From Sphaeroforma arctica JP610 (lineage: Eukaryota), in contig NW_014040332.1 of assembly GCF_001186125.1 (NCBI RefSeq), positions 1 through 35,676 on the forward strand: DNA of 35,676 nt, given 5' to 3'. This document shows positions 16,001-35,676 of this stretch, piece by piece. The notes under the pieces are model-generated. The model was not told the DNA's origin and ran no database searches. It saw only the letters and a list, made by a program, of their open reading frames with translations. Position 1 is the first letter of the stretch, and each line of letters opens with the position of its first letter. The position numbers and the translations under genes are program-made.

Positions 16001-18949
16001 TACCATGGTGAAATATTACGAAATGGTTTCTGACAACAGGCGCGAGGTTGGCTTAAGGTGATAGGTGCCACTACAATCAAGTGTGATGGCTTCAAGAAGA
16101 GCAACTGAGCCTGCAATATGTTTAGTGCAAATCGAGGCAGGGTAGAAGACTTGGTTTCCGAGGAACATAAAGTGGACAACATCAATGGCAACTCTGGTCT
16201 GAGTTTCTTGATGACGAGTTAGATCAACGGTAAGGACTCGGTGATACGCATATATACAAACTAACAAGCCATGAGAACCCTGACACCCAGAAGTCCCAAG
16301 TACTATTCGAAACCCTACTAGGAGGAGTGATCGGCCGCCGTTGTCGATTACACAACTCACAGTTTAATTCAAGGGCGACGACTAAAAGAGTGACGAGTTT
16401 GCTGGGAAATGCTGTATGCCTAAGCGTTCTAAGAGACCTTCTAAAAAGGCAAACACTGAAGTGAAGTTCTCGTTTTGTTTTTTTTCTGACAAGGTCTTCT
16501 GCTAGAAACAAATACTGAGCCGACAAGGATGACTTAGGGCCGTATCTGAAACAATCCATCTCGTCCGTATCTGAAACAATACATCTCGTCATAGACCCAG
16601 ACTATTAGAGCTTGTATTTGGCGATAATATGTATGTTGTATAAATTCAAAGCACCGTATGTATTGAATATCTCGCTGATGGTCTATCTAGTGAGTGTGTT
16701 CATAAAAACAATTCATGTTCAAGATGATTATTCGTGTGTTAGCTACACAACAATGTCGATGAGTGTGTGTAGGCGGATTTCCCGCTATTGTTGATCGATT
16801 GCGAAAGGGATTCCCAAAGTCCCAATACTCTTGTAAGTAGTATAATATTAATGAAAGTGTATAATTGTGTGTAAGTGTGGTGTCCTGTGAGTATGTACGT
16901 TGATTGGACGTTTTGGTTGATTCAAAGTATGTGCATGCAATGGAACTATTTATCTATTGTACATTATGAATATCTATGTGTATACTAGTTTATTATCGTC
17001 GTGTAATTATACGTTAGTGTGAATATATTATTCACTTGAGTAGCCCTGTATTTACAATTTTCATTCAATTGTTCTAATTTTATACTGTCGACTCTATCCC
17101 ATTGAATATGTAGTTAAACTCTATACAAGTATACATCAATGTGATTTATTTGTGTCGTAATATTTGTGGAACTATGGTATTGCAAAGTTATTTAATTTTG
17201 TAATTCACTATCAAATTTGAGAATAAGCTTATGGATTGTCAGTTATATCTGTGGGGCGTCCATGAATTTCGTCTATACTCCTTGTGGAGCACATATAGCG
17301 TTTCTAATATACAAAATGATACATATTCATATATAGCTACTATGTCAATATGTGCGGGACTATAAATTCCTTGTCATCTCAGTGTAGCGTGTATTGTTCC
17401 AGTGTAATCTATATTTTAGTCTACGTTATTACTATATCTACAGTATAATATAGGTATCCTTCATTATATTATAAACATCCTCCACTATATTATGAACTTT
17501 CTGAATGCTATTTCATTTTACTTTAAAAATAAATGTGCGGCGAATGTCTGCCCAAATGTCTATACATGTGTGTATGTCGAATTTTTGTATATATTTGAAA
17601 TTTATCTATAGATTTCGTTTGAAATCCGTATATTTGTATTATAGCCCTCATCTTTGTGAACGTATGATCAATAATTCTTGTATAATGAAATAAAGCAAAA
17701 TATATTCTGTTATTTATGCCTGCATAGCATGAATTGTTATTGATGTATCAAGATTGACATTATTTTTATACTTTACTGATTGTTGTTTATGTACAAATCT
17801 GTATCATATGCTATTATTATATTAGTGAGTATTGTAATCTGAATATTTACATCCNNNNNNNNNNNNNNNNNNNNNNNNNNNNNNNNNNNNNNNNNNNNNN
17901 NNNNNNNNNNNNNNNNNNNNNNNNNNNNNNNNNNNNNNNNNNNNNNNNNNNNNNNNNNNNNNNNNNNNNNNNNNNNNNNNNNNNNNNNNNNNNNNNNNNN
18001 NNNNNNNNNNNNNNNNNNNNNNNNNNNNNNNNNNNNNNNNNNNNNNNNNNNNNNNNNNNNNNNNNNNNNNNNNNNNNNNNNNNNNNNNNNNNNNNNNNNN
18101 NNNNNNNNNNNNNNNNNNNNNNNNNNNNNNNNNNNNNNNNNNNNNNNNNNNNNNNNNNNNNNNAACTACCACTACCAATACGGTAAGTCTTGGCAGTGTG
18201 ATACTTCGCAGAACAAATTTTGCATATTCGTGCTTTTCCTTGGCGCTTGTATTCACTTCGATTCCTCGTACGTCGACCCTTTTTATGTCCTCGATGACCA
18301 GGATTGTTTGAGGGATATACCTGACATAATTTGCTCTCGATATCGAGTTCATTTGGAATTTGAAGAGTCGCCGAATACTGCTTCACGTATGTCTTGACAT
18401 GAAATACAGGGCTGTACCTGGATAATTAAAACAATGGTGGAAATATAGTGAATTTTCTTTAGCAATGAGCTAGCATTGAGCTATTGAGTATCGGCGTTCA
18501 AATTTACATACATTGGATCGGGTCTTATATATACATATATGTGAAAAAAAGTAAAAGCAAGTGACTTATCATTTCTCATCTTGTAGGTTGTACTTTTCTT
18601 TGAATTTATCATACTCCCGGGAATTGCCCAATGCTAATGTCATCAGAGTTCTGCCTCCGTGTACACATAGCCTTCCCAACGCTTCTCAACGTAAGCATGC
18701 GCAAACCGATAAACTTAGAGTGTGTGACATAAACCGTCCATTAATGTCAATTCTGCCTACAGTAGTGTAAAATCTGGCTGGCTATTAACATGCTTGACAA
18801 CGCAAAACAAAACAGAATCATTAGACACGTTCCATTAGACTTCAACGTTACCGAATACCGACCATGAACGGGTTCGTCTCTCAAGTCTTGAACAGTTGCC
18901 ATGACATGGTCCTTTGAAACTGTAGTAATCCCATGCAGAATTGTCATAC

Positions 18950-19358
18950 ATCAGTGGTAATTCGAGAGTTCGGGTCCCGACAAACCTCCTGCCAGCGTGC
19001 CTGCCGCCGGCCACGTGGGTCATCCGCAAAGAACTCACGGAGCCACAGGTTTGAAAGTGCCTGATGGTCAGTGAAGATTGCGATAGGGTGATGAGAGTTG
19101 CCAAACACCGCCCAATGCTTCCGAAGACCGTACTCCTGCGCAAGCCACTCCTTGTTAGCAACATGATAGGGAGGAAAAATACGGCACTGGCCAGAGTTCC
19201 CCTTTTCTCAGCACATAGATCGCACCACCAAGGCCGATATGCTCACAAGCATCAGTGAACTGGTAAAGCTGTTCACCCGGCTCTGGCGTAGCAAGGACCG
19301 CACATTGCTTCAGACTCTCGTAGATTAAATCAAACGCGGCTTGCTGGTCAGCACCCAT
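18950..19358 (-). pseudogene. Ty3-type RNase H remnant
   Basis: QQAAFDLIYESLKQCAVLATP...FTDACEHIGLGGAI...PVPYFS, then after a frameshift NKEWLAQEYGLRKH...IAIFTDHQALSNL...RRQARW. Confidence 0.85.
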
Positions 19359-19399
19359 GGCTGATATTGGTTTCAGAATCTTAGAGAACCCATCAATAT

Positions 19400-19960
19400 A
19401 TCGTTGTCAGAAAGCCACAGTGTGGTACCAAGATCGCACACGGTCCTGGCTGTCGGGACGGTCAACTTCAAGGAGTGCTGCTAACCGATCAGCTGAGATC
19501 GTGACGCCCTGATGGCTGTACCAGCGCCCCAAGATCTTCACATGCCGCTTATAGTATCTAATACACGCCTTTGACAGACCTACTGGATATCATATTTGTC
19601 GCACCGTTCAAAGAATGCAATAAGGTGATCCCAATGCTCCGAGGCGTCCACAGAGGAGATTACGATGTTATCAATATACCATTTGATACCCTGTAAACCG
19701 TCAAACAGGCGATCCAGGGTTTCTTGGCGAAGCTCGTGCAATACCGCCAGTCGTCCACGGTCTGAGGAGTAACCCGCGGGTTCTTCGGTACCAATAAAGA
19801 CTTCGTGGACCAGAGAATCTCCTCATTCTCTTGTTTTGCAACGATGCTCTGCTTGACCAGGTCATCAATCTTGCCCTTCATAGCCACCATCTCAGGGTGA
19901 TCGAGGGGTAGGTTCTCCTGACTACGGACTCTACCGGGTAGAGCTTGATTGGGTCAACCT
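19400..19960 (-). pseudogene. Reverse transcriptase remnant with internal deletion
   Basis: KIDDLVKQSIV...WSTKSLLVPK...WRYCTSF, then GIKWYIDNIVISS...EHWDHL (YxDD degraded to YIDN at 19667-19678), then ILGRWYSHQGVTISADRL. The motifs between WRYC and YIDN are missing. Confidence 0.8.
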
Positions 19961-21195
19961 TCATGATCCTGTGCTTCTGCTTTTCATAGGTTCGTCCCTC
20001 AATCAAGGCTTCCAGTTGTGCCAGGTCCGATTCAGACTTGCTAGCTTCCTTGGCCAGCTGGCGTAATCCAGAACGGTCAAACTCTAAACATTTGTTTGCA
20101 CGCCGATCACAGTCCTCGATCTCAGGCTTATCTGAGTCATCGAGGACATGATTTGGGAGATCGATACGATTGACCATATCTGGCAAGCGAGGAGGAATAC
20201 CCCTTCCACAACCTTGGCTTGCGGGATGACTTTCGCCGGGACAGAGTCCTGCTCAGTATGCTCCTCACGTGTCACGCGCCTCTTCTCCGCCCTTGCTAAT
20301 AGCAAGGCCCGAAGGTCTTGGACTTCTACACCGGAGGCGCCTCCTGTGGAGGTCACCCCGAGTGAGCCATTTGGCAGAGAGGTCGTAGGGGACTTAGGTC
20401 CACTAGTCACCGCTTGCGTTGGTCTCGGGACACGCTGGCCATGAGCCCCCGTCTTTTCATCGGTTCAAGTAGGCCCGCTTGCGGGTACCCTACGAAAAGA
20501 ACCGGTCGGAGGTTTTGCCATGGCGGACTTAGGTCCACCATTCGCCACCCGCGTAGACATCGTGAACGACTCATGCGTAGCATTGTCATTCCTAGCTGTC
20601 GCCTTCTTTCGTCTGGCCGGATAGGGACGCTTGTTATGCGCCCTAGGCCGGCTCATGGACTCTGTACTAGGAACAGAATCAGTATCATCCGACGAATCGG
20701 ATAACAGGCTCCTGCAGGATTGCTCACTGCTGTCGTCACTTGCATCCTTCCGAGCCGTTGGAATCGGACGCCTCAGAGACACTGGTCAACGGACGATAAC
20801 CCATAGTGGGCCATGTTATGTTCTCGTCACTCGAGATATCAGAGTCCGACATAATATCCCGACAGTCGTCATCCCCAGACGACACTTCAGACGCCGAACT
20901 TGCCGCAGTGGGCTGCAAAGTACTGTCCTCAGTAGAACTATCGCTATCCACACTGCTGCGAAAACGCTCGTTGACTCCACCAGCCACACGCTCTAATGGT
21001 CGACGCGGCTTATGCCGCTTCTTCATCACCTTCTTGCCCCGCGCCCGCGGTTTCTACTATCGGAACAAGCAATAGCTTGACTTGCGGGCTCAAAGGAACA
21101 TTTGTATCCTTAAGCCACGACCCCTTAATGGCTGACTGAGGTACTAAGATCAGCTCACAAACCCTAAAAACATCTGGTCATACCCAATGAGTATG

Positions 21196-21483
21196 TCACA
21201 GCCCATAGATATGTCTTCCACGACATAAAAAGGGTGGCCTTCTGCTAACGCATATGCTTCCCCAAGGATGACCAAATATCAAAGCTTCCAAGTCATCCCA
21301 TGGCACTGAAAACTTGGGAGCCAACGTCCTTATGCCATCTATTCCTTCCAATGGTGGCTCTGCATACCTGTCCCTGGGTGTCACACCGAGCTTCTCAAGC
21401 ATGCGGTTCGTCACAAGGTTGAACGTGCAACCCGAATCCGCATATGCCCACGTGTGAACAGCGCCAACTATTGCAGGAACCAC
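21196..21483 (-). pseudogene. Retropepsin-like aspartic protease remnant
   Basis: AYADSGCTFNLVT (DSG motif) ... GIDG ... LIFGHPW. Confidence 0.8.
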
Positions 21484-22302
21484 CGCACCATTTCATTTGC
21501 GACGCGGCATTTTCTTTGAAGCAGCGCCTGCCGACTTTCCATAACGTGGGCAGCCCTCGACCGTGTGTTTCGTATTGTGACAAACTGTATAATATAGGTC
21601 ACTTTCCGACTCCGACGACTCGGAATACGCCCTGTCTTCACTACAGCCCCCTCTATTCTTTCCACGCCCCCGCGAGCGCTTCTGGTCCTTCCCAGAACGT
21701 GAATGCGAACGCCCTCTGCACGAGCCGTCATCCTAAAAACGCGACTTCCGAGGCTTGGAATAACGCTCATGCCTGTCCTTCTTGTGATACCGCCCCGGAT
21801 TTCGCTCTCTCAGAGATCGAGAGCGTGGGCTCGACCACCGGCCTCGATTGCGATATTCACTCCCATGCTTCTTCCGGTCCTTACGCGACTTATAAATCAA
21901 ATAATCAAGTTGCGCCTGCCATTGTTGCTGTTAGGGGTTCGGTTGCTGCTGCTGACCACCTCTTCCTTTGGTGTTCTTACCTCCGTGGTTACCACCACCA
22001 CCACCACCCGCTTGTTGGCCATTACCATTCTGCGGGCGCTTCGGCTGCTAGTTATTCACCCGCGCCTTGACCCTAGTACTAACTCCGTCCTCAATCTTAA
22101 TGAAATCGAACAAGGATGGGCCGTAAAGTGCCCATGATTGCTGGAGCCAACTGAGCAAGCGCGGCGGGCCTTGCTCAGCAAAGCCAGCTACAGAAAGAAC
22201 GTGCTGCGTGTTATTGATTACAGTAAACCAGGATTGTTTACCAAGCATAAAACTACGGTCAAACACCGGAGGCTTAACAAGGTTTATCCCAACATCAACC
22301 AA
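21484..22302 (-). pseudogene. gag remnant with a degenerate CCHC zinc knuckle
   Basis: In frame with the protease. A G/Q/R-rich region is followed by YTVCHNTKHTVEGC at 21550-21591, i.e. CX2CX4HX4C with the first C replaced by Y. Several in-frame stops. Confidence 0.65.
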
Positions 22303-23169
22303 GGAGAGAATCTAAACTTAGAGAGGGACACAGAAATATTACAGATGGAAATTAATCTCGGAGCCGAAGTGCCGGGAGTACGGAATCATCAATATCGAAA
22401 ATCTCTGATGGGCATAAGGGCATCCCTAAATATCGAAGGAGTACAATCTAAACGTATAAGGCCAAATATTATAATGGAAGCCACGATCAGTTGAAGACGT
22501 GGCGACGCTGCCTTTGGATTGAATCATAGATTAAACGAGAACCCTTTTCACCTTAAGAGGTGTCCTTTAATGGCTCAAGGATTACGAGTCCAATGCATAT
22601 AAAAGCAGGGACTCGAATCAAATAAATCACAACTATTCCCTTAAAACTTAAAACACTTTAAGATACTTTATTATCTGAGAACAACACGTGTTGCGAAAAA
22701 TGAGCGTAAACAACAATTCAACAACCACGATTTGCTCATTTATCTCACTCACTACTTTCTCTAATAGCTACTAATGTTGCCATTCGCCATTGCGAGTGCT
22801 GCATATGCCTTGTTGTTGCCTTTGCGAAGAACCATACAAAAACGAGAAACCTTTTCTGACATTCCGGTCGGCAGGCGTAAGACTACTAAGTCAATCGCTC
22901 GTGACGCCCTAGAATCCAGGGGCACCCCATTCGCTGATTGCGATGTCCCTGTTGCTGAGCTCGCCGTTGTCGATCCCTTCGTAGACAAACCAGACGTAAT
23001 TTCTTTTGCGAGACGTTCCTTCCGATAGCGGTAAGCCTTCTCCGTCATCAGACGACGCGCTACCTGCCTCATCTGTTGTCTCATTGCATCGTCTTCTTGA
23101 GCCTGCGCAAATTGCGCCTTCTCCGCTTCTGTCTGTGGTGCATCACCACTGCCGTTGCTATTCGTTTAT

Positions 23170-24648
23170 TTGTAAAGCGCCCATCACGCTTACGCAAATA
23201 GTCAAACGCATCTTTGAAAAGTGCTTTCTTAATCTGATTACGAGCCACCCCGGCTCTGCTACCCATGCTACCCAAGCTGGTTTCCAATCACGGTACTCCT
23301 GTCATACCCAAGCACTTGCCGCCATGGAATCTGAGATACAGTCAGAAGAGGAGTGGAACGACGTTTGTCTGGACATTACCAAGGCATACGACAAGGTTGC
23401 TCTCCCACGCCTATGGGTACTTCTGCATCGGCATCCTACAAGGCTCAATCGTCGGCCCCCAGCTGTTCATTATCTACATGGATTCATTAGCTGTCACGTT
23501 AGCACAATTTCGGTCCAAGCTCCTCCGCTCTAGTTTATTTGTCGATGACACACGGATTCAAGCCCCTCAATCGGTTCCGCTCCAGCCCTTCTCAGATGAC
23601 ATTGATGCGCGGGGACGAAAATCTGGCCTCGAACAGGGTGTCATTAAACCCCGAGTACGATCTACCGACTTGCGACACGCGGCGCCAAATCTCCGTATAA
23701 ATGATGATCTTATCACGCCGACGCTTGCAGACGCACCTTGCAACACACGTTACCTCCCCCTGTAGATGGCGCCCGTACATGCCAAACCGAAACGCTCTTA
23801 ATATCTGAGGTTCCCACGCTCTCACGACCAGGGATCAACCTCGCCAGACATATGGAATCCCTGGTTGCAGCATTGTCTATAGGTATCGCCTCTTTCCGCG
23901 CTTATGGCTTCCAAGGCTTCAGCTGGCGACACCCCCGCAACCGACTGGTGCTGTTCGAAATATTCCTCCTATCCACGGCTACATATGGCCTGAATATTAT
24001 TGCCTGGGCTCCGCCTATATGGAAGGATGCGTTGGACCCCCTGTTCGAGCGCTTTAACTCAGCACTCATCTAAGCAGCAGCCATCATCACGGGCACTAAA
24101 TATTCTCGCTTTTCCACTTTTGTGGCCTGCTCTCCGCGCGACCATTCGCGGGCTACCTCGGAGGTTGCCTGGGAATACAACTCGATTCAATGGCCAGCAC
24201 AAATACACTCACCCCCCTGACGCAACCCGCCTTGGCCCACGACAAACCATCACTGCGCTTCCCGTACAGTATCTATGCTCACATGAAAACTGTACACTAA
24301 ACCACGGGCGGGCGTACACCCGACCATGTAGCCCTCCGCCAACGCTGTGACGACATCAGGAAGAACTCAACAAATCGCTGGTCCAACAAGGAGATCGCGG
24401 CAATGGCCCGGCGCCAATACTACTACCAACTGTTTATAGGTAAACCGCCAACCTCAAACCGAGACAAAGCCAGACACGACAGCTTCAACCGCTGCTTCGA
24501 GCCTACACCAATCCGGCTCTGTGCTATGGTTGTAACGAATACGTACATGTTCACATTGATCAACTACCGCACCGACGGCTGTCTCTGCCCTGTCTGCCCG
24601 GTAGCCACAAGTTCACCACCAGCCACTTTACCTGCATACAACAACTGA
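23170..24648 (+). mobile_element. 5'-truncated, degenerate non-LTR (LINE-like) retrotransposon RT
   Basis: PITLTQIVKRIFEK, QAGFQ, VCLDITKAYDKV, (frameshift) GILQGSIVGPQLFIIYMD, LFVDD, post-RT RNRLVLFEIFLLSTATYG, and a possible C-terminal Cys motif CLCPVC. Confidence 0.85.
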
Positions 24649-25991
24649 TTCGACGCATCCTTTTAGGCCCGAAACTGTCGCCCATTGGCCCTGACCTCCT
24701 TCAGCAATTACAGGAGTGCCACGACTTCCACGGTATCTGGACCCTCCACGAACACCTTGGATCTTTTCTCCAGCATGTAGAAGAACCACCGTACCCTCAC
24801 CCGTCTCTGACACATCAGCAGATGTTCCCCATACCCCGGCTAATCACGCTGTTGAAGTACTACTTCCAAATTTCGGTTCAAACCAAATCATCGCGCTTCT
24901 TGGTTCCGCCTATGATACTTCCGATCCAGGCCAGCTAGCACATACCGAATGTATCCGTGGTCTGGTGCGGCATTGGCTCACCCCCATCCTCGCTCCTCGA
25001 CCGAATTATGACGGATAACCTGGTCCTACTCGGTATTTCGTACTCTGCACTAACCCAGTCCACGGTACTACACGGCGCAGACCCGATCCGTACCACAGAG
25101 GTGGGTACGCTACTTAGTAGGTCAGCAAGCGAACACATGGCACATTCGATGATATCAGTGTTTTGTCAGCCCTGGCCCGAATTGACTCGGCGCATGTCCT
25201 CCATCGTCGACTCACTCGGCCCAAGCTTCAAACGGAAATTCACTGACCACTTTTTCCCATCGATCTTTCCCGAACCACTACAACGGCTACGAGAGCCATA
25301 CCATATGTTCATACATTGTAACATACATACATTGTAACTTATCTTTTTTTGAAATTAATAATATTATCCCTATACCTGCCGCTCCTGAGTCCGGCTGGAT
25401 AGCCTTGGGATCCTGTCGCCCTACAGGCCGAGATAACGTGGCCCGTTCCGGGAGTGCTGACACATCAGAGTCAGCAATTCGTCCATTATCAGACGGCGTA
25501 TGCAGCGCAACATTGCACTGGTCTGCCAAAAATTTCTCTGCACGCTGATATACCACATTGCTGGCGCCACCCAAGTTGTGCTGTTCTGATTGACTACGCA
25601 AAAGAGGGGTTGCACTCTTCCCCAAAAAGCTTTCGTTCTGGGATACCAACGTTGTTGGCTGAAAAGGCCGCAGTTTCCGCTGATGTTTGTGCATCACGAG
25701 GTGATTCATCTAGAAAAAAATTCAACAAGGATCTACTCGCCATGTAGATGAGGAGTTCCTGCAAGGGATGCACCGTCACCTGCGGATCTTTCCGCAGTGC
25801 ACGGACAAACGCTGCGACTGCTGCATGCGAGGTGTCTTTGCGCAAATGGTACCATTCATCCGCATATAGCGTGGCCATCGCCACTAGCCGCATGTGGATG
25901 CCTTGCATGCCAGAAAGCATGTTCAGCTGGATCTTGCTACAAAACTGCTGGTCGATATACAGGCTCAGCATTTGTTCCTTGGCTTCACTTT

Positions 25992-26062: not shown

Positions 26063-26999
26063 CTTATTAATCGATGCACTCCACGCAAGAAGAAAAAAAG
26101 TCATCGCTCTGAACCATGCTGCCTATTCTGATAACAACTCTAACTAGTTCACCAACTGGTCGCACCTGCATATCTAGCGAATTCATGTAGCGCCCACTTT
26201 ATATTCTCTAAACTGCCAACTGAATAGAATTTCACCTCACCTGCAAATATATCAGTTATAAAGATTACATTGTTGTCTTGTGTATTTTTAAAGATGAATT
26301 ATATGAGTAGTGACGATAACAAACAACAATATACTTTTACGCTTATAGTTGAAGTACGAATAAACGTCTACCGTGTTTGTTGTGTTGTAGAAATACGGCC
26401 TCCGGTCAGTCTAAAATATCAAGATCAAATGAGATAACACATTGGTTTTTATTTGTATTTAAAATAATTTAATTCAAGTTATTTTTCCTATATTTCCAAA
26501 GTGTTCTAAATTCACTTTGATGGCTCCAATAGCCTGAGTATTTGGTATGACTCATTTACTTGGACCTATTTGAGACGATAGTAGATGTAGAATATTATAA
26601 ACTAAATTTTATAATCTCTGAACTACTACTTATAGGTTTTGGTCTCCCCGCCAACCTCCAAAATCCAATAAGTCTTTTTCTTTTTATCTTTTCTTCAGAT
26701 GGAACTTTGTTTATATTAGCTAATGTATTAACTTGACATACGTTCTTATGTCTATCTACAAATTAGACATGTGGTCATGAACACTTAGTACTTCTAGTGA
26801 AAATTATCGTAATAACATGGAACTAGCTAAGGCCATGGATCAAAGACTCAAAGCTCTTAGGGAACCTGAAGCTCGCACTTTAAAGTGCTGCTTAAAGAAC
26901 AGCCAGGTAGCTGCGAAANNNNNNNNNNNNNNNNNNNNTCATCCAGCCAGCGCTACACAGAATCTGATTGACTCAGAAGAGCTCGTGAGTAGAAGTTAA

Positions 27000-28258
27000 A
27001 AAAAGTAATTTAACTCATCGAGCATATGAGCATACTTTATAAGATGGCTATTCGTGCAGGGCTTGATCACCCGGCGCTGAAAGGAACCATACGTGAAGTA
27101 TACCGACGCTGTACTGATTGTGAAAAGAACCAGATCGAGCGCTACGGTTGGGCACCCCTAAAAAGTGTGACAGAAGACCAATCGATGCGCCGAGTCATAG
27201 TCGATTTGATTAAACTCCCGCGATCCAAGCATACTGGCGATGTATATATCTGTCTTTTCTTATGTGTGGCTCCGGGCTGTAACTTGCTTTATGCAATACC
27301 GAGCAAACGCCCGCAAACAGTGGCAGAGTTATGCTATCACGTCTTTAATGACTTCGGTTTCCTCCGAGTACTATGTTCTGATAACGGTAGAGAGTTTTGT
27401 ACCGATTTAGGGTTTAGGGTTTTAGATGACCCATAGGCGTGGTGTTCCTTATAAACCTCACACGCAGGGTGCAAATGAAACATGTCATAGAGAACTGAAG
27501 AAGCTATTGCGTACCGCACTAGATGACGCTGAGGATAAGTGGCCTTTTCATTTAAAATGGGTTCAGACTCGAATGAATAACTGCATGAATCCTCAGACTG
27601 GAACACTCCCATTTCACTATTTCTTTGGCCGCTATAGTGAATGACAAGCAACGTTTGACAAAACTGCGCCCGAGAAACACGTAACTCCGTGGCTACAAAA
27701 GATCGAGCAAATGCAGAACGTTGTTTACCCCTGTTTACTCGAGCACAAAAATCGTGTCCTACTTAAAGCGTATGACCGATGGAATAACACTAAGAACAAT
27801 GTTCAATCCAAAGTTGGCGATTATGTTACTATTGAAAATCGCAATGCCAACGTTACCGAACTCTCTTCTACGATAATTGGACCTTTTGTTATTTCTTACC
27901 ATGATGGGAAGAGTGATACTTACGAAGTGAATAACATAGATGGTACTAGCTCAACTAATCTAGACACTCACCGTATCCCTACCTCCGAACTCTCATTCGC
28001 TCGCTCATTTGATTCTGATGTCTCAGTTATGGAGTCACAAGTCAAAGATATAATTGACAAACATCCGAAGACGGTTACACTTACTACAAGAACCGTTTTA
28101 TGGATGGGACAGTAGCTTGGCTAACCTCCGATGCGTTTCGTGAATCTCGCGACTTCCTTCGTATATTTATTAGGAAATGGAATAAGCGTTTACATAAGAA
28201 CACACGAGATAAACGGGAAAGGATTTCCTCAGGTGACTACAAACCCGGATGGATATGA
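27000..28258 (+). mobile_element. Degenerate Ty3/Gypsy integrase (CTDC zinc finger, D,D,E core, GPF module, chromodomain-like tail)
   Basis: VYRRCTDC, RVIVDLIKLP, CSDNGREF, YKPHTQGANE, IIGPFVI. After a frameshift near 28060 it reads VKDIIDK-TSEDGYTYYKNRFMDGTVAWLTSDAF. Confidence 0.9.
27406..27425 (+). repeat. Interstitial telomere-like repeat (TTTAGGG)2 TTTTAG
   Basis: tttagggtttagggttttag lies inside the integrase core. Confidence 0.7.
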
Positions 28259-28667
28259 AATTTCTTATTTGCCACCTGCTTCCTATGTGACTAAACTTTC
28301 TGATCTGCTTACCAACAGAGCAGAAAATTCTTCGAACTTACTCACTAATTTATTTTTTATTTTCTCAAGTTGGACTTAGAGGTATTTTATTGGTTAGTTT
28401 GATTGGGTGATTGTTTCGAGGCGTGAACTGTAAACTATGCGTCCAATGAAGTGATATCTAGTCTTATTAACTAAAACATAAATAAATCTAGACCGAAGTA
28501 GTGAGTGATTAGAGCGGAGCATATAGACAATAGTCTCAGTCTAAAATTCCCTATTCTTTTTCTCATTACCAAGGGCTGAAGCTAAACTTATTTAGCATTT
28601 TAATTTTTAACGTATTAACGTATTGTCTTAGTAACGTAAACAGCCTAGAGGAGACCGACTTTTACAT

Positions 28668-29245
28668 ATGTTTAAGTTTAAATACGCTATCGATATTATA
28701 ACGAAAGGAAAAAATAAGGCAGCGAATGTAGCTAAGGCTGCAAACGCGAAAGGGTTTGCTGTAGGTGAAGAAAAGCAGAAAACACCCCCGGTACTATCAG
28801 TAAAAGCTGAAGCAACTGAGATCACGCCGGTACAACCGGCACCAACTCTGATTAAACAGAAATGTAAGTAGTTGGTTGACTCGTGTGTAGGTGCATCCGG
28901 AGGTAACGTGACTACGAAGCCACAGAAGCCGCCAGCGAAGAAGGCGAAATCTCAAAAGGGAAAAGCCGAGAAAACGCAATCCTCGGAAAATTCAACTTCA
29001 GAGAAAGTGCGACATGCACTGGAATCAGATGTATCATCCCCACCAGTGGACACGCGCACAGCACGTAGGCAAGATCCTACTTACCATATGATAGCAAGGG
29101 ATAGGAGAACCTTCCTGAAGAACTACCAACCAATGGTACATGAATTGAGACCTACTAAGCAGCGGAAGAAACAGCAAGCCGCAGCGAAGGATCAAAGTCA
29201 TGGTGAATAAGGGGAAGATGACTCGGAGGATGTGCCAATAGTGTA
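28668..29245 (+). pseudogene. Lys/Ala/Pro-rich low-complexity ORF of unknown function, interrupted by in-frame stops
   Basis: ORFs 28668-28871 and 28872-29210 are in the same frame, separated by a single TAG. An acidic tail GEDDSEDVPIV follows the next stop. Confidence 0.45.
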
Positions 29246-30039
29246 AGATTCGGTCTATTAAGGCGATATTAACGCCTTAGAGTAAATAAACGCGTAGGTA
29301 AATTCTAAGTATCGTGAAAATATCAAAGTAAAAACGAAATGAGACGTTTAGTAAAGTTAGGTATGCCTCGTGAAAACAGCAATACTCTGAGGGATTGTGA
29401 GGCTGAGACATTGCCTATATATAATCCTCTCAGTACTGTTTCCGCCGAAGGGATTTTATTTAGTGTTTCGTTGTCGCTCTATTAGACACTATGGTATGTT
29501 TCATTGGGGCGAATCCGAGAGACTCTTAAAATCCTATCTTTAGAAGAAAAAAAATAAAAAATACTCTTGATGTCCTTAGTTATTGTCTTAACCAATAACT
29601 TGCCACTATCAATAGTACATTGTATCATACATACTTGCCATTTTTGAAATAAACAATATTATCCCTATCAATATTACCGACTTAGCCCTCATCAGGCTGG
29701 CACATCTGGTTGGCTGATCGGAGGATCAACTAGGTAACGTTAATAGTCCCTAGAAACCTATATTCGGTTGAGCCATCTCGTTACTGAAGTATTCAGATAT
29801 AAATAAAGTTGGAAAGTAAATATAGTTCTATTAATAGAACTAGACCAACCCATATGTTTGGTATTTTACTGAGGCCTTGTAATGGCCTCGTCCAAATATC
29901 TGGTATGTAAAATGGAAAAGGTATTAATTAATAAAAGCATTAAAAACCATTTAGGAAACTTAAGTTCCTCGTACTATTAAGAGTACGTTTATAATTTACG
30001 TACTGCTTAAGAGTACGTTTATAACGTAGAGTCTAATGT

Positions 30040-30077
30040 GGAGGCCCGGCTTATTACACAGCCCCAACCCTGCTTTG
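30040..30077 (-). promoter_or_regulatory. Candidate polypurine tract and start of the 3' LTR of the minus-strand Ty3 element
   Basis: The minus strand reads AAAGCAGGGTTGGGGC|TGTGTAATAAG about 140 nt after the pol stop. The PPT is imperfect and the LTR end is not established. Confidence 0.4.
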
Positions 30078-30197
30078 AGACCCACGAGAAGCAAGATGCC
30101 CACTCAAGCTGATATTGGATCAAAAAGCGAGAAAGGAAGAACGGGTCGAAAACATTAAGTAGCATAACTTATAGTTAATGTTTCTCAGGCGGAGAAG

Positions 30198-31542
30198 CTA
30201 AGCGTTCTCGGTTACCCTGTGAGTTTTGGGCTTGAGTCCAGTAGGTCCGTGGTGGTCGACTGCACGTTTCTTACGCTTCAGTGTCTTAAGCACATATGAA
30301 GGGTGAGCATTAAAGCTCGGGATAAATGCTGTAGACTGATAAGTTTTAACTTCCGTGCCTTCAGACGNNNNNNNNNNNNNNNNNNNNATAAAGCTTGTAC
30401 GGTAGTATGTATAGCCTCCCTTATCCGTTCTCCATATAATGTCTTTAAATTCAGAATGATCAAGAGGAGCATTAGAGTCATGTCTTCTTGCGAGTCCTAT
30501 ATTAAGCGCACTAGAACCATCGGGGTTATTTACCTCGTACGTTCCACTTTTAGTGTCTGCTACAGAGATTACATATGAACCTATCCATTTAGATGTTAAT
30601 ACAGTAGCATCGGAATTACGTTGATGGATGTTAACTCTGTCACCGACCTGATACTCTGCTATCTTCTTGGTAGTGTTCCAACGCTTTTTCCCTTTTAATA
30701 AGGCTATATTGCGTATTTCTCGCAAGCAAGGATATACAACGTTATAATTATGTTTGTACCTTCTCTAACCATGGTATCTCATGGTGATCAGGTTCGTCCT
30801 TGTTAAACGGGGTTTGTAACTCACTATATCTGCCACGAAAATAGTGAACGGGTGTAGTTCCTGTAATCAGATCAGCACACTCGTTCATCTGTGTTTGTAC
30901 CCACTTAAGATGGTACGGCCAATCATCTGCATCATCCGTTAATGCAGTACACAAGAAGAACTTAAGTCTTCTATGGCGCGTTTCATTCGCGCCTTGCGTT
31001 TGCGGCTTATATGGCACACCTCTCTTATGGCATATGCCTGATACGAGTACTAGCAATTTCATTACATCATCGCAGAACTCACTACCGTTATCAGTGCACA
31101 TAATACCTGGGCACCCGTGGTCAGCAAAGACTTGGCAACATAATTCTGCCACGGTCTGCATATTCTTATCCTTTAATGGATAGAGCAAGTTAAACCGTGG
31201 CGCCACATCAAAGAAGTGGCATACGTAACGGTCGCCTATGTGCTCGGACGTGGGCAGGTCAACCAGATCAATAATGACCCTGCGCCATGGAACATCTTCA
31301 GTCACACTCTTAAGCAGGGCAAACCCAAAGCGCTTGATCTGATTGAGATCACAGTCTGTACATGACTGATATACTCTGTCAACTAAAGCTGCCAGCTTAA
31401 GGTGCGCGATCCCATTTTGCTTAGCATCTTCAAGTGTGTCTACTACGTTCTGGTGCTTCAGCTTATGGTTTTGCGTCAGCCAAGCAAAAATGTTTTCATC
31501 ATTCTGCTCCTCCAGAATAAAGGTAGGGTGTTGAGAATCCAC
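30198..31542 (-). pseudogene. Ty3 integrase
   Basis: HKLKH...CTDC, RVIIDLVDLP, TDNGSEF-(35 residues between D and E)-QGANE, YQVGDRV...KWIGSYVI (GPY/F-like), and tail FKDIIWRTDKGGYTYYRTSF. Confidence 0.92.
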
Positions 31543-31934
31543 TTGTGTGGTCTCTAAGTCTGTGGTGTTTTCAGACTCCTATCCTGCTTTCGCATGAGTG
31601 TCATAAGTGCGCTCATGTGCGTTAGATACACCTGACTTATTAAATAGTCGCATTATACATGTATACGCTTCTGAATTGTCTTTTATTAATCCCTTTAGAA
31701 ATAGGGTTTGAAAGATCTCGGGCTTGGACTTTATGTTAATAAACAGAGTCCTAGCTAGAGACTGACGCTTCTTAACAGTAGTGTCATTAGTAGATTGTAT
31801 TTCTTGTGCACAGACTTCAAATGCTGTGCTGCCTTTGAACTGCTTAACGCTCAATTGGGTAGAGAGTGGAATCTCTGATTCTTTGACCTTGTTAAGGAAG
31901 GTCTCAGAAGGGGTTCATTTGGTTGTTCCAATGG

Positions 31935-32392
31935 GACCTATACGATATATTATAGTATGTTTCCAGGGCGTCTTCTGGACGGCTCGGGTACCCTGATATA
32001 GGAAAGTATCTACTTCCCTATTTTTATATATTGGCTCGCATTGTATCATGCTTATTAATTTATTGAGCCATCGATCGTTACTCTGTAATGGGCAACACAA
32101 CGCGATGGTAGTTTTATGTATATGAACATAATTTAATAGCTGGGCAATTAACTGCCATGGTGGCTTTATGTATATGAACATAATTTAATAGCTGGGCAAT
32201 TAACTGCCATGGTGGATTAGCCCACGCATTATGTTTGGAGAGGTCTATTTGGAAGGCGTCTCCCAAAGGATGATTTAAAGTCCTGTAATTTGATAGTTGT
32301 GCATTATGATGTGCAGCAAACATATCTACAGTATGTGACCCAAATATCTTTTGAGCCAGTTCAAACCACCTGGGGTTACATTTCCAGTCAGT
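31935..32392 (-). pseudogene. Dam-like DNA N6-adenine methyltransferase domain fused within pol
   Basis: After collapsing the 52 bp duplication: TDWKCNPRWFELAQKIFGSHTVDMFAAHHNAQLSNYRTLNHPLGDAFQIDLSKHNAWANPPWQLIAQLLNYVHIHKTTIALCCPLQSNDRWLNKL...DTFLY...KTPW. This has the SAM-binding D-x-FA..NA motif and the catalytic NPPW motif (32207-32218). Confidence 0.85.
32113..32215. repeat. Tandem duplication with a 52 bp period (51 identical nt)
   Basis: 32113-32163 is identical to 32165-32215. Confidence 0.95.
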
Positions 32393-32434
32393 GGCTAGTA
32401 ACTCACGTACGGATTTACTAAAGTCCGGTACGAA

Positions 32435-32800
32435 GCGTGATAACATATCCGGTAAATGGTTATGTATTCCTGACAGATGTTTTATATCAAAATGAAACTT
32501 TGATATTGTATCATGCCAGCGACTCAGTAATTGTGAGTCGGGTTTTATCTCTTTCATATATTGAAGGAATTTCTGATCACACATCAGCGGAAATGCTGTT
32601 CCGTATAAGTAATCTCGGAAGTGTGTTAGAGCTGCCACTATGGCTAATAGCTCTTGTTTAACAGTTGGGTAATTCAACTGTGAAGCATTCATTGCTCGAC
32701 TAAAGAATTGTATACATCTAGGTTTGTTATCTATAACCTGATATAATACTCCTCCTAAGGCTAAGTCGGAGGCGTCCGTTGCAATTTCAAACGACACGCC
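32435..32800 (-). pseudogene. Ty3-type RNase H
   Basis: FEIATDASDLALGGVLYQ...IQFFSRAMNASQLNYPTVKQELLAIVAALTHFRDYLYG...LSRW...HLSGIHNHLPDMLSR. Confidence 0.92.
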
Positions 32801-33183
32801 ATCGAACAGAGGCTTGCTGGACTGCATGTTTGAGCGCTTTAAATGAGTCATCACACTCTTTAGTCCACAAGTCTCCTAGTTTGCCTTTATGACATCTTAA
32901 GTGTCCAAAAGGTTTAAGGTAGTCAGCTAAGTGTGGTAATCCATCTGAAAAGAAGTTTACAAACCCACACATGTTGTTAACATCTCTTCCTGTAATTGAT
33001 GTTCGCCAATCTAACAGGTGTTCTACCTTACCGGGGTCGATTTTAATACCTTCCCCAGATATTCGGTAGCCTAAGAGCTGTATTTCGCTCATGGCGAAGT
33101 GGCATTTTTTCTCCGTCTGACTAGTGCGGTGTGTTCGCCCTTAGTTAGTATGTTGTGATTCTTGTTTTCCTTGTGACTTGTTG

Positions 33184-33348
33184 TTTAGTATTTCTAGCCG
33201 GTTTCAATAGGGAAAGTATTTGTTTATGCTGCACTTGCTGTTTAGTATTTCTACCCAGTTTCAATAAGGAAAGTACTTGTTTATGCTGCACTGGTTAATT
33301 AGTATTTCTACCGAGTTTTAATGGTGAAAGCATGTGTTTATGCTGCAC
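33184..33348 (+). repeat. 57 bp tandem repeat, 3 copies
   Basis: ttagtatttcta....gtttcaata.ggaaagta.ttgtttatgctgcac. Confidence 0.9.
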
Positions 33349-33925
33349 CCCACGCTTGGGCAACAATTGACGATCCTTGTGCATATTGCACTGGTTTCTT
33401 CTTTTGTCTTCGGGTTTGTCTCGTATCGAAAGGTTTCATTGGGAAAGGCTTATATGGTAGTGAAATGAGAGGTTATTATGGTAGAGTTTTGTCTCCGGGC
33501 CAGCCAAAATATAGTAGGAAGTACAATGGACATATGGCATTTTATTTTTGTCTTCAAGGATATAAATAAATACACCAGTTGGTAGTTTGGTACATAAATA
33601 CGTGGATGCGGATTGAGGTGCAATGATTTTAGTGTGACAGACTTGAAACTTGACAGGCTTGAAAGCCTCAAAATCTCACAGAACTTTTTGGCGCCATAGT
33701 GAGAACTAGCGTTCGGTTATCTGTATTTATTTACGACGCTATTCAGTAAAAAAAATACCAGAAGACTATGGTTTTCAACGTTTACCGAAGAATGTTGAAT
33801 ATTTTCGTTCCCCAGTGTAAACGTAAATATAGTATTTATGTATTTTCAGGTCCCTTGCGTTTATTTATTTATTTTGGTTTTTTAACGGTTAAAAAGAAAA
33901 TACCGCCAGACTTGATGAGAGTTGA

Positions 33926-33973: not shown

Positions 33974-35676
33974 GTGACTCTGGTTCTCAACTTTTCAGTT
34001 CTCGCGTTCATCAGTGTATTTATTTCCATAGCCAACTTTTTTCAGTTGGCTACTCAAGAGTCTCATTAGACTCTCCGTTCATGAGGGGGTTTTTTTGGGT
34101 TGTTTTAGTTTTGTAAAAAAAAAAAAACACACCCAAGTGAAACCAAAAGAAATATTACACGACATTTCCAATTCCAAAATATCTAGAAATAGTTTGAAAC
34201 AAATATTTAATGTCCAGTTTTGTATTGCGTTTATTACGGATATCATGTCAATCTGGCTGTTGACTAAATAAAAATATTTAGTTAACGACAATAATAATTT
34301 ATACCAGTTTCAATCGTATTGTTTTTTGATTCTGAGGCCATGTGCAACCAACAGTAGATAGGGCAATACAAGAGGTGCAAAGCTACACGTTTGAGATATT
34401 TACGAGCTATATACAAATACACTTGGCGTTGTATTACAGTCTCCCTTTTCCCAAGGTTTATCCAGCCATGGTGAGTAAGCGTGGCGAAATTGACTGATAT
34501 GCTAATACACCTACCATCCTGCTTGCACACAACGTCACGATCTGAGGCAACCGTTCGTAGTGTAGCCGACTACCGAGGCCGTTTAAGCATGCCGAGCTAA
34601 TTCATTTGGACTATTGCACTTAAGCTCAATCCCTCGTAGTGAATACATGCCTTAACTTTAGACCTACGGATGTAAAACAGCATACTTATTCTTCGCAAAA
34701 CACATTTAGATAGGCTGCATCTCAATTCAGAAAACATACGCAACGATTGCCAGAAGCATTTCAAGCAGCAAAACATAAGTAGGTTCGGCTACAATACTTG
34801 TGCAATGCAAACACTCACATGAAGCTCACGAAAGACACTGAAATGGAGAAAGTTGAGAGTTCATCCTCTGCTCAAGAATTAGAAAATATGGCTGTGCTGC
34901 GATGTGTAAATAGCGGAAGAATAGCAATATAGTGCATGGATCACATCGTATTTCAAATCAGATACTAATGTTATATGTATTCAAGCGGTAGAGGTGGTCA
35001 GTTGCGTCAGAATACCCAGTAGTATGTAATTTGTATGGCAATATACCTGGAACACACGGCATAAACGGCGCAATCGTAGGCTGGTTAATATTGGAAGTAC
35101 CGCTTCTCTCAGTTTGTCGTGCAAATCTCTACCATCGGGATCCCAGCAATATAGCACTGTATGGTGTCGTCTCCAACGAAAATATCATTAATTGTAGATC
35201 GGTCAGAGATTTGGTTCCTTTGCATGTTAGTATCAGCGACTTACATGCGCATGTATTCTTCGTAAATTACAGACTCAGAAGCGTAGAAACAACGGACGAT
35301 CCAAGCACGGACGTGGCCACGTTAAGCCCGTCCGTTGCGATAACTGTGGACGATGCGTTCCCAAGGACAAGGCTATCAAGCGTAACCTAGTCCGTAACAT
35401 GGTAGAGGCCGCTGCCATCCGTGATCTTCAGGAGGCTTCTGTCTACGACAGTATGTTTATGTGTGGATTCAAATTTTGTTTAATTATGTAGGGTTTGTCA
35501 GCGTTTTCAAAGTTCCTGATAATAGAACTTAAATCACAGTGGTTAATATACGTGCGAAATACGCGCAACAAAGGTACACTCTACCAACATGTGTATTGTG
35601 TGATAGTCGCAGCATGGTATATTATATATATATATATATAATTATACATATACATATACATATACATACATACATA

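What the first reader, a model, noticed from the sequence alone, without database searches (positions are those of the whole stretch)
30198..33113. Integrase-type (Ty3/Gypsy) LTR retrotransposon with a Dam-like N6-adenine DNA methyltransferase embedded in pol between RNase H and integrase
Seen: the Ty3 RNase H (..PDMLSR) runs in one open frame into DWKCNPRWF..FG..VDMFAAHHNAQ..DAF..D..WANPPW. Once a 52 bp duplication is removed and two single stops (31915, 31579) are read through, the same frame continues through a linker into an HHCC, D,D(35)E integrase. This argues for an ancestral RT-RH-MT-INT polyprotein, not a chance nested insertion. Established: (N/D/S)PP(Y/F/W) is the catalytic motif of amino (N6-A/N4-C) MTases. 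A related phage-Dam-like MT domain follows RNase H in DIRS elements, but those use a tyrosine recombinase and a different RH. Canonical Ty3 pol is PR-RT-RH-INT with no MTase. Inference: the element may methylate its own cDNA or insertion site, for self-marking, for escaping silencing, or to mimic 6mA that marks active genes in several unicellular eukaryotes. I cannot confirm from sequence alone whether this architecture is already described.
Basis: partly seen in the sequence, partly recalled or inferred. Interest (0 to 1): 0.9.

Follow-up and report, generated by a model that had tools for sequence, protein, structure and literature searches.

The report
Broken gypsy retrotransposon carrying Dam methylase
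This is a dead, truncated copy of an abundant gypsy-type jumping gene that really does carry a phage-like adenine-methyltransferase domain between RNase H and integrase, which likely helps mark new copies as active chromatin, but this kind of element was already described in 2026 in what is most likely the same protist species.

Summary
On the minus strand a Ty3/Gypsy RNase H runs in frame into a Pfam Dam (PF05869) domain, then a linker and an HHCC/D,D(35)E integrase. Both stops and the 52-bp duplication are private to this copy. Two natural relatives encode RT-RH-Dam-integrase in one unbroken ORF. The Dam domain is 63-71% identical among the three, the adjacent linker only 20-25%, so it is maintained and no one-off chimera. 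This copy is dead: cut at 33113, no gag, protease, RT core or 5' LTR, more frameshifts. The window's RPS26 exon is identical to that of Sphaeroforma arctica. This scan noted such elements on other DNA (23 findings). Two leads remain: a chromo-like integrase tail, which the preprint says this lineage lacks (only), and one intact relative with Cys at the catalytic position. Verdict: real, already known.

The parts
32805..33113 (-). C-terminal thumb/connection of Ty3-type reverse transcriptase; the element is cut at 33113 (no RT catalytic core, protease, gag or 5' LTR)
   Evidence: tblastn 63-64% identity to P0002/P0003; depth falls at 33113-33144, other copies run on unlike the window at 33113 (42 contigs in X1), and a flank contig 33078-33700 with no differences bridges the junction in 3 of 4 runs
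32435..32806 (-). Ty3-type RNase H, frameshifted against the RT thumb
   Evidence: Pfam RT_RNaseH E 1.3e-27; 67-70% identity to the intact relatives
31927..32389 (-). Phage-Dam-like (PF05869) amino-methyltransferase domain; SAM-binding motif I near 32297-32326, catalytic motif IV at 32207-32218 with Asn in first place
   Evidence: Pfam Dam E 4e-6 to 2.5e-5; profile of P0002/P0003 against two Gordonia phage Dam proteins: probability 78%, E 1.7e-5, 90 columns; motif labels recalled, positions counted on the alignment
32111..32214 (.). 52-bp tandem duplication that breaks the Dam frame; private to this copy
   Evidence: joint 32110 to 32163 in one contig and depth dip in 4 of 4 runs
31468..31926 (-). 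Poorly conserved linker with the two premature stops (31915-31917, 31579-31581)
   Evidence: 20-25% identity among the three sequences; no Pfam hit; stops private to this copy
31351..31467 (-). Integrase HHCC zinc-binding domain
   Evidence: sequence; aligns to P0002, where Pfam Integrase_H2C2 scores E 0.043
30757..31290 (-). Integrase D,D(35)E catalytic core
   Evidence: Pfam rve E 6.2e-6; 60-67% identity to the relatives
30390..30746 (-). Integrase C-terminal region, ending in the first part of a possible chromo-like tail that is cut by the assembly gap 30368-30387
   Evidence: tblastn 50-53%; the tail of P0003 gives Chromo as 21 of 30 Atlas hits
30061..30076 (-). Purine-rich tract just before the LTR (likely polypurine tract)
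   Evidence: sequence
29242..30058 (-). Probable 3' LTR, 817 bp, TG...CA ends with a 5-bp terminal inverted repeat
   Evidence: inner edge: depth step and 31 contigs with mixed continuations at 30051 in run X5; outer edge from the sequence only, since reads were laid from 29400

Best explanation
This is a dead, 5'-truncated copy of a repeated Ty3/Gypsy family whose Pol carries a phage-Dam-like domain between RNase H and integrase, and in intact copies that domain likely methylates adenines in the element's own reverse-transcribed DNA so that new insertions would gain transcription-friendly 6mA. Shown here: the domain order, its presence in one unbroken ORF in two natural relatives, conservation of the domain at the level of RNase H and integrase, and that the breaks are private to this copy (about 0.95 sure). 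Taken from the 2026 preprint: the domain was probably captured from a DIRS element, S. arctica has 6mA downstream of active start sites, and its Dam-LTR insertions carry more 6mA and more transcripts than other LTR elements. Inferred and untested: the domain is packaged with Pol, acts on cDNA or RNA:DNA hybrid, and host AMT1 then maintains the mark (about 0.5).
For: One ORF RT-RH-Dam-INT in P0002 (1376 aa) and PR-RT-RH-Dam-INT in P0003 (1400 aa). Identity in Dam 68/71/63% against RH 77/67/70%, integrase core 56/60/67% and linker 20/25/24% for P0002-P0003, window-P0002, window-P0003. A profile of two phage Dam proteins scores the window N-half 22.1 bits; the best of 500 shuffles of the P0002 segment scored 5.8 (434 reported). 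All 10 weak phage matches (E 0.2-1) but one lie on annotated methyltransferases (9 of 10). Depth is continuous and far above the flank across RH, Dam and integrase in 4 of 4 runs. Host RPS26 exon is 100% identical over 49 aa to S. arctica. The preprint reports 6mA enrichment and higher expression in S. arctica Dam-LTRs.
Against: No catalysis has been shown: representative eukaryotic Dam domains did not raise 6mA in dam-minus E. coli (preprint). P0003 has an unbroken ORF and a conserved Dam domain but Cys in place of the catalytic Asn. All Pfam Dam scores (22.9-27.1 bits) are below the curated cut-off, and the C-half alone gives no hit. The 6mA enrichment could be host AMT1 marking transcribed elements. 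Only two intact relatives were found, both unnamed.
Confidence: 0.55

Rival explanations
1. The domain is kept for a non-catalytic job (binding SAM or nucleic acid, scaffolding Pol, or recruiting host AMT1), and the 6mA on these elements is laid down by the host.
For: Cys at the catalytic position in intact P0003 while the domain stays 68% identical to P0002; negative E. coli assay; unchecked scan notes on other genomes report conserved domains with lost motifs.
Against: 2 of 3 sequences keep the full motif IV and all 3 keep the motif I Asp; the preprint finds the catalytic triplet conserved in nearly all sampled domains; P0003 is one protein seen on 2 contigs.
Confidence: 0.28
2. The enzyme is active but its role is to protect the cDNA (from host nucleases, deaminases or DNA sensing) before integration, as phage Dam-like enzymes protect phage DNA, and not to set chromatin state.
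For: Nearest detectable relatives are phage Dam-family enzymes; DIRS elements keep the same domain in lineages without AMT1 or 6mA (preprint).
Against: The preprint reports that Dam-LTRs, unlike DIRS, co-occur with AMT1 (9 of 13 species) and show 6mA on integrated copies.
Confidence: 0.15
3. One-off chimera, nested DIRS fragment or misassembly.
For: The copy is broken, lies among other decayed elements and has an assembly gap.
Against: Two independent unbroken ORFs have the same order; contigs of four runs cover the whole stretch at family-level depth.
Confidence: 0.02

Closest known systems
Ichthyosporean DAM-LTR lineage (Fernandez-Moreno et al., bioRxiv 10.64898/2026.05.21.726589; whole main text read, figures and supplement not seen)
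   Same: Ty3/Gypsy Pol with a Dam domain, host S. arctica or a very close relative, conserved catalytic triplet, same proposed 6mA self-marking model.
   Different: The text does not give the domain position for this lineage (it does say RT-Dam-integrase for the Chloro-Ochrophyta clade; Fig. 2b not seen). It says the lineage lacks chromodomains, whereas the tail of relative P0003 looks chromo-like. Whether this exact family is in their set could not be checked.
DIRS tyrosine-recombinase retrotransposons with RT-RH-MT Pol (PMC3783388 and PMC5890265, passages read)
   Same: A PF05869 Dam-like domain in Pol together with RT and RNase H.
   Different: DIRS lack aspartic protease and DDE integrase and use a tyrosine recombinase; this family has protease (P0003), Ty3-type RT/RH and a DDE integrase.
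Phage Dam-family methyltransferases, PF05869 (Gordonia phages Samman98 gp59, BritBrat gp56)
   Same: Motif order and about 31% identity over 90 columns.
   Different: Stand-alone phage genes; here the domain is fused inside a retrotransposon Pol.
KnitGypsy-Dnmt3 of Klebsormidium nitens (PMC5890265, passages read)
   Same: A Gypsy Pol that has captured a DNA methyltransferase kept under selection.
   Different: That is a C5 cytosine enzyme, structurally unrelated to Dam.

Membership tests
Ty3/Gypsy LTR retrotransposon | Pol order PR-RT-RH-INT with Ty3-type RT/RH | tested here: met
   P0003 has PR, RT, RH, INT in that order; best solved-structure matches are Ty3 Gag-Pol, E 3.7e-76; the window copy keeps RT thumb, RH, INT
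Ty3/Gypsy LTR retrotransposon | HHCC plus D,D(35)E integrase | tested here: met
Ty3/Gypsy LTR retrotransposon | Paired LTRs, primer-binding site, polypurine tract, target-site duplication | tested here: inconclusive
   One probable LTR with TG...CA ends and an adjacent purine tract; the 5' end is missing, no mate in the window, no genome held
DAM-LTR (2026 preprint) | Pfam Dam domain in the ORF or vicinity of LTR-type RT/integrase (preprint threshold E 1e-5 by hmmsearch) | tested here: met
   hmmscan E 4e-6 (window N-half), 7.4e-6 (P0002), 7.6e-5 (P0003); E-values are not on the preprint's scale and are borderline
DAM-LTR (2026 preprint) | Conserved catalytic triplet of motif IV | tested here: met
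   Present in the window copy and P0002; first residue is Cys in P0003
Ichthyosporean DAM-LTR lineage | Host is an ichthyosporean | tested here: met
   RPS26 exon 100% to S. arctica, 96% to the next hit (labelled CFRG), at most 90% for the other 118 of 120 listed; one short gene only
Ichthyosporean DAM-LTR lineage | Falls in that clade in the Dam and RT trees | not testable with these tools
Ichthyosporean DAM-LTR lineage | Lacks a chromodomain | tested here: inconclusive
   No Pfam Chromo hit in P0002, P0003 or window tail pieces; Atlas features give Chromo for 21 of 30 hits, top score 0.90
Active N6-adenine DNA methyltransferase | SAM-dependent methyl transfer to DNA | not testable with these tools
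   Preprint assay of representative domains was negative in E. coli
DIRS retrotransposon | Tyrosine recombinase, no DDE integrase or protease | tested here: not met
   DDE integrase and protease present, no Phage_integrase hit in P0002 or P0003

The most novel reading that the evidence does not exclude
This family carries, besides the Dam writer, a divergent chromodomain-fold tail on its integrase that Pfam misses, so ichthyosporean Dam-LTRs would be writer-plus-reader elements, against the preprint's statement that they lack chromodomains; and one sister family has kept the Dam domain with Cys at the catalytic position, giving a natural active/altered pair in one genome to test whether 6mA on these elements needs the element's own enzyme.
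Probability: 0.45. Interest if true: 0.4.

Novelty: already known. Interest (0 to 1): 0.2.

Why it matters
Retrotransposons that bring their own adenine methyltransferase could write an activating mark on themselves, the reverse of the usual silencing logic. That idea and this host are already in print (2026 preprint), so the copy adds an example only. What stays open is whether the domain is an active enzyme; the Asn and Cys subfamilies seen here, in a culturable protist with nanopore 6mA data, offer a direct comparison.

Tried and rejected
No whole genome is held, so copy counts, paired LTRs and dN/dS were not obtained; summed contig depth is no copy number. AlphaFold2 of P0001 with 3 sequences gave mean pLDDT 36; no fold search was run on it. 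The intact Dam domain and the integrase tail were not folded, so both folds rest on sequence and feature methods. The profile search of protein representatives never ran. The Atlas did not answer for the P0002 Dam segment or for the P0002 tail, so the chromo lead has no replicate. Scans of metagenome and viral contigs gave one locus each with 25 and 12 matched residues; L001 is an unrelated GC-rich frame, L002 was not examined; both treated as chance. PHROGs: DNA methyltransferase phrog_111 at E 0.0019 for P0001 only, 1 of 4 proteins. PDB search with the second copy's tail gave only a terpene synthase match, taken as chance. Dinucleotide ratios show no clear signature (ApT 1.01, CpG 0.77 in the internal part). 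Expression: no RNA holder listed. No tRNA genes in the window. No earlier scan notes for this genome or these sequences. Rejected: nested DIRS fragment, misassembly, DIRS membership.

Full report
Observation. The element lies on the minus strand. The ORF 32114-32875 matches Pfam RT_RNaseH (E 1.3e-27) and, in the same frame, Dam PF05869 (E 2.5e-5). A tandem duplication with 51 identical bases at offset 52 breaks the Dam frame just after the catalytic motif. The frame that starts in the duplicate carries the Dam C-half, a stop at 31915-31917, a linker, a stop at 31579-31581, an HHCC motif and an integrase core with the D,D(35)E spacing (Pfam rve E 6.2e-6). The copy has further damage: frameshifts near 32800 and 30750, a 10-codon gap near 30495 and an assembly gap at 30368-30387.

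The breaks belong to this copy. Contigs of four public runs were laid on 31540-32260. At both stops 97-100% of the summed depth reads a sense codon in 4 of 4 runs. Depth dips over the duplication in 4 of 4, and one contig of X6 skips exactly 52 bases. On 29400-33700 (four runs, two shared) depth is continuous and far above the flank from 29400 to about 33113, with no drop over the Dam domain. At 33113 other copies continue unlike the window, while a flank contig without differences bridges the junction in 3 of 4 runs: this copy is really truncated there and lacks the RT core, protease, gag and 5' LTR. A depth step and mixed continuations at 30051 mark an LTR edge; the sequence shows a purine tract, then TG at 30058, and a matching inverted end at 29242, giving a probable 817-bp 3' LTR whose outer edge I did not test with reads.

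Intact relatives. A search with the Dam N-half among longer proteins returned 1 of 3 candidates, P0002 (1376 aa); a search with P0002 residues 560-730 returned 2 of 141 candidates, P0002 itself and P0003 (1400 aa). Both are single ORFs with RT, RH, Dam and integrase in that order, P0003 also with an aspartic protease. Their RT/RH match Ty3 best in the PDB (E 3.7e-76). Identity by domain for P0002-P0003, window-P0002 and window-P0003 is 68/71/63% for Dam, 77/67/70% for RH, 56/60/67% for the integrase core and 20/25/24% for the linker. The Dam domain is thus as constrained as the essential enzymes. This is protein identity among three sequences, not dN/dS.

Is it a methyltransferase fold? Pfam Dam is hit in all three sequences but below the curated cut-off (22.9-27.1 against 28.1 bits). 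Weak tblastn matches in phages (E 0.2-1) fall on annotated methyltransferases in 9 of 10 records. Two of these are true PF05869 members (E 4e-26, 3e-24), and the profile comparison with P0002/P0003 gives 78% probability, E 1.7e-5 over 90 columns, running past the place of the duplication. A profile of the two phage proteins scores the window N-half 22.1 bits, against at most 5.8 for shuffles; the C-half alone does not score. The structure prediction failed (pLDDT 36). The motif names (I, IV) are recalled. P0003 has Cys in place of the catalytic Asn.

Host. The RPS26 exon at 35303-35449 is 100% identical over 49 residues to the protein named Sphaeroforma arctica, 96% to the next hit and at most 90% to the other 118 of 120 rows listed. 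The host is most likely S. arctica, an ichthyosporean protist; this rests on one short gene.

Literature. A search for retrotransposon, adenine methyltransferase, Gypsy and DIRS returned 2 papers. I read the whole main text of bioRxiv 10.64898/2026.05.21.726589 (figures and supplement not seen). [quoted passage not shown] It reports more 6mA and more expression on S. arctica Dam-LTRs than on other LTRs, proposes methylation of reverse-transcription intermediates followed by host AMT1 maintenance, and found no activity in dam-minus E. coli. Passages of PMC3783388 and PMC5890265 document the DIRS Dam domain and a Gypsy with a cytosine methyltransferase. Searches were seen as listings only. The closed supplement bears on whether this exact family and domain order are shown. 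This scan holds 23 earlier findings with the same words in at least 3 genomes (8 shown); I had found the preprint before reading them.

Mechanism. Most likely the domain travels with Pol and methylates adenines in the element's cDNA or RNA:DNA hybrid, seeding a mark that host AMT1 keeps and that favours transcription (about 0.55). Shown: order, conservation, motif. Published correlation: 6mA and expression. Inferred: catalysis and timing. The main rival is a non-catalytic role (0.28), supported by the negative assay and the Cys variant; protection of cDNA is third (0.15); a chimera is excluded (0.02). This copy makes no working protein.

Residual lead. The last folded-looking 70 residues of the P0003 integrase gave Chromo for 21 of 30 Atlas feature hits, top score 0.90 with 174 shared features; shuffled proteins reach 0.9 in 4-10 of 100 cases and the calibration was not made for protein parts. 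The tail is 55% identical between P0002 and P0003. By eye it follows the three-strand-plus-helix chromo pattern with an incomplete aromatic cage (pattern recalled). Pfam and PDB searches do not detect it and the replicate on P0002 did not complete. A search for chromodomain, ichthyosporea and chromovirus listed 3 papers (listing only apart from the preprint). It is a lead, not a result.

Verdict. Real feature, correctly seen, already described in this lineage and most likely this species. Interest 0.2.

Noticed in passing
window 26808-28334 (+): Second decayed element of the sister family, tail to tail with the finding: linker remnant and integrase, 89% identical to P0003 over 124 residues; no Dam or RH match upstream. 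Its tail keeps more of the chromo-like segment (about 28030-28237, frameshifted).
   Followed up: partly
P0003 residues 693-696: Unbroken relative with Cys in place of the catalytic Asn of motif IV, while the rest of the Dam domain is conserved.
   Followed up: partly
P0003 1255-1325; window 30390-30440 (-): Possible divergent chromodomain at the end of the integrase.
   Followed up: partly
window 18835-21492 (-): A third, unrelated decayed Gypsy-like element (protease E 0.006, RNase H E 3.5e-6); no match to P0002/P0003 Dam; runs towards an assembly gap.
   Followed up: partly
window 23000-24900 (+): Decayed non-LTR-like reverse transcriptase remnants (RVT_1 E 1.6e-5, 2.6e-4).
   Followed up: partly
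window 28872-29210 (+): Lysine-rich 112-residue open frame between the two convergent elements; no Pfam hit.
   Followed up: partly
window 33176-33346: Three tandem 57-bp repeats just beyond the truncation point.
   Followed up: no
window 29616-29668 and 25312-25373: Short 77% similarity between the probable LTR and a site 4 kb away.
   Followed up: no
window 35303-35449 (+): Exon of the ribosomal protein S26 gene, 2.2 kb from the truncation point.
   Followed up: yes
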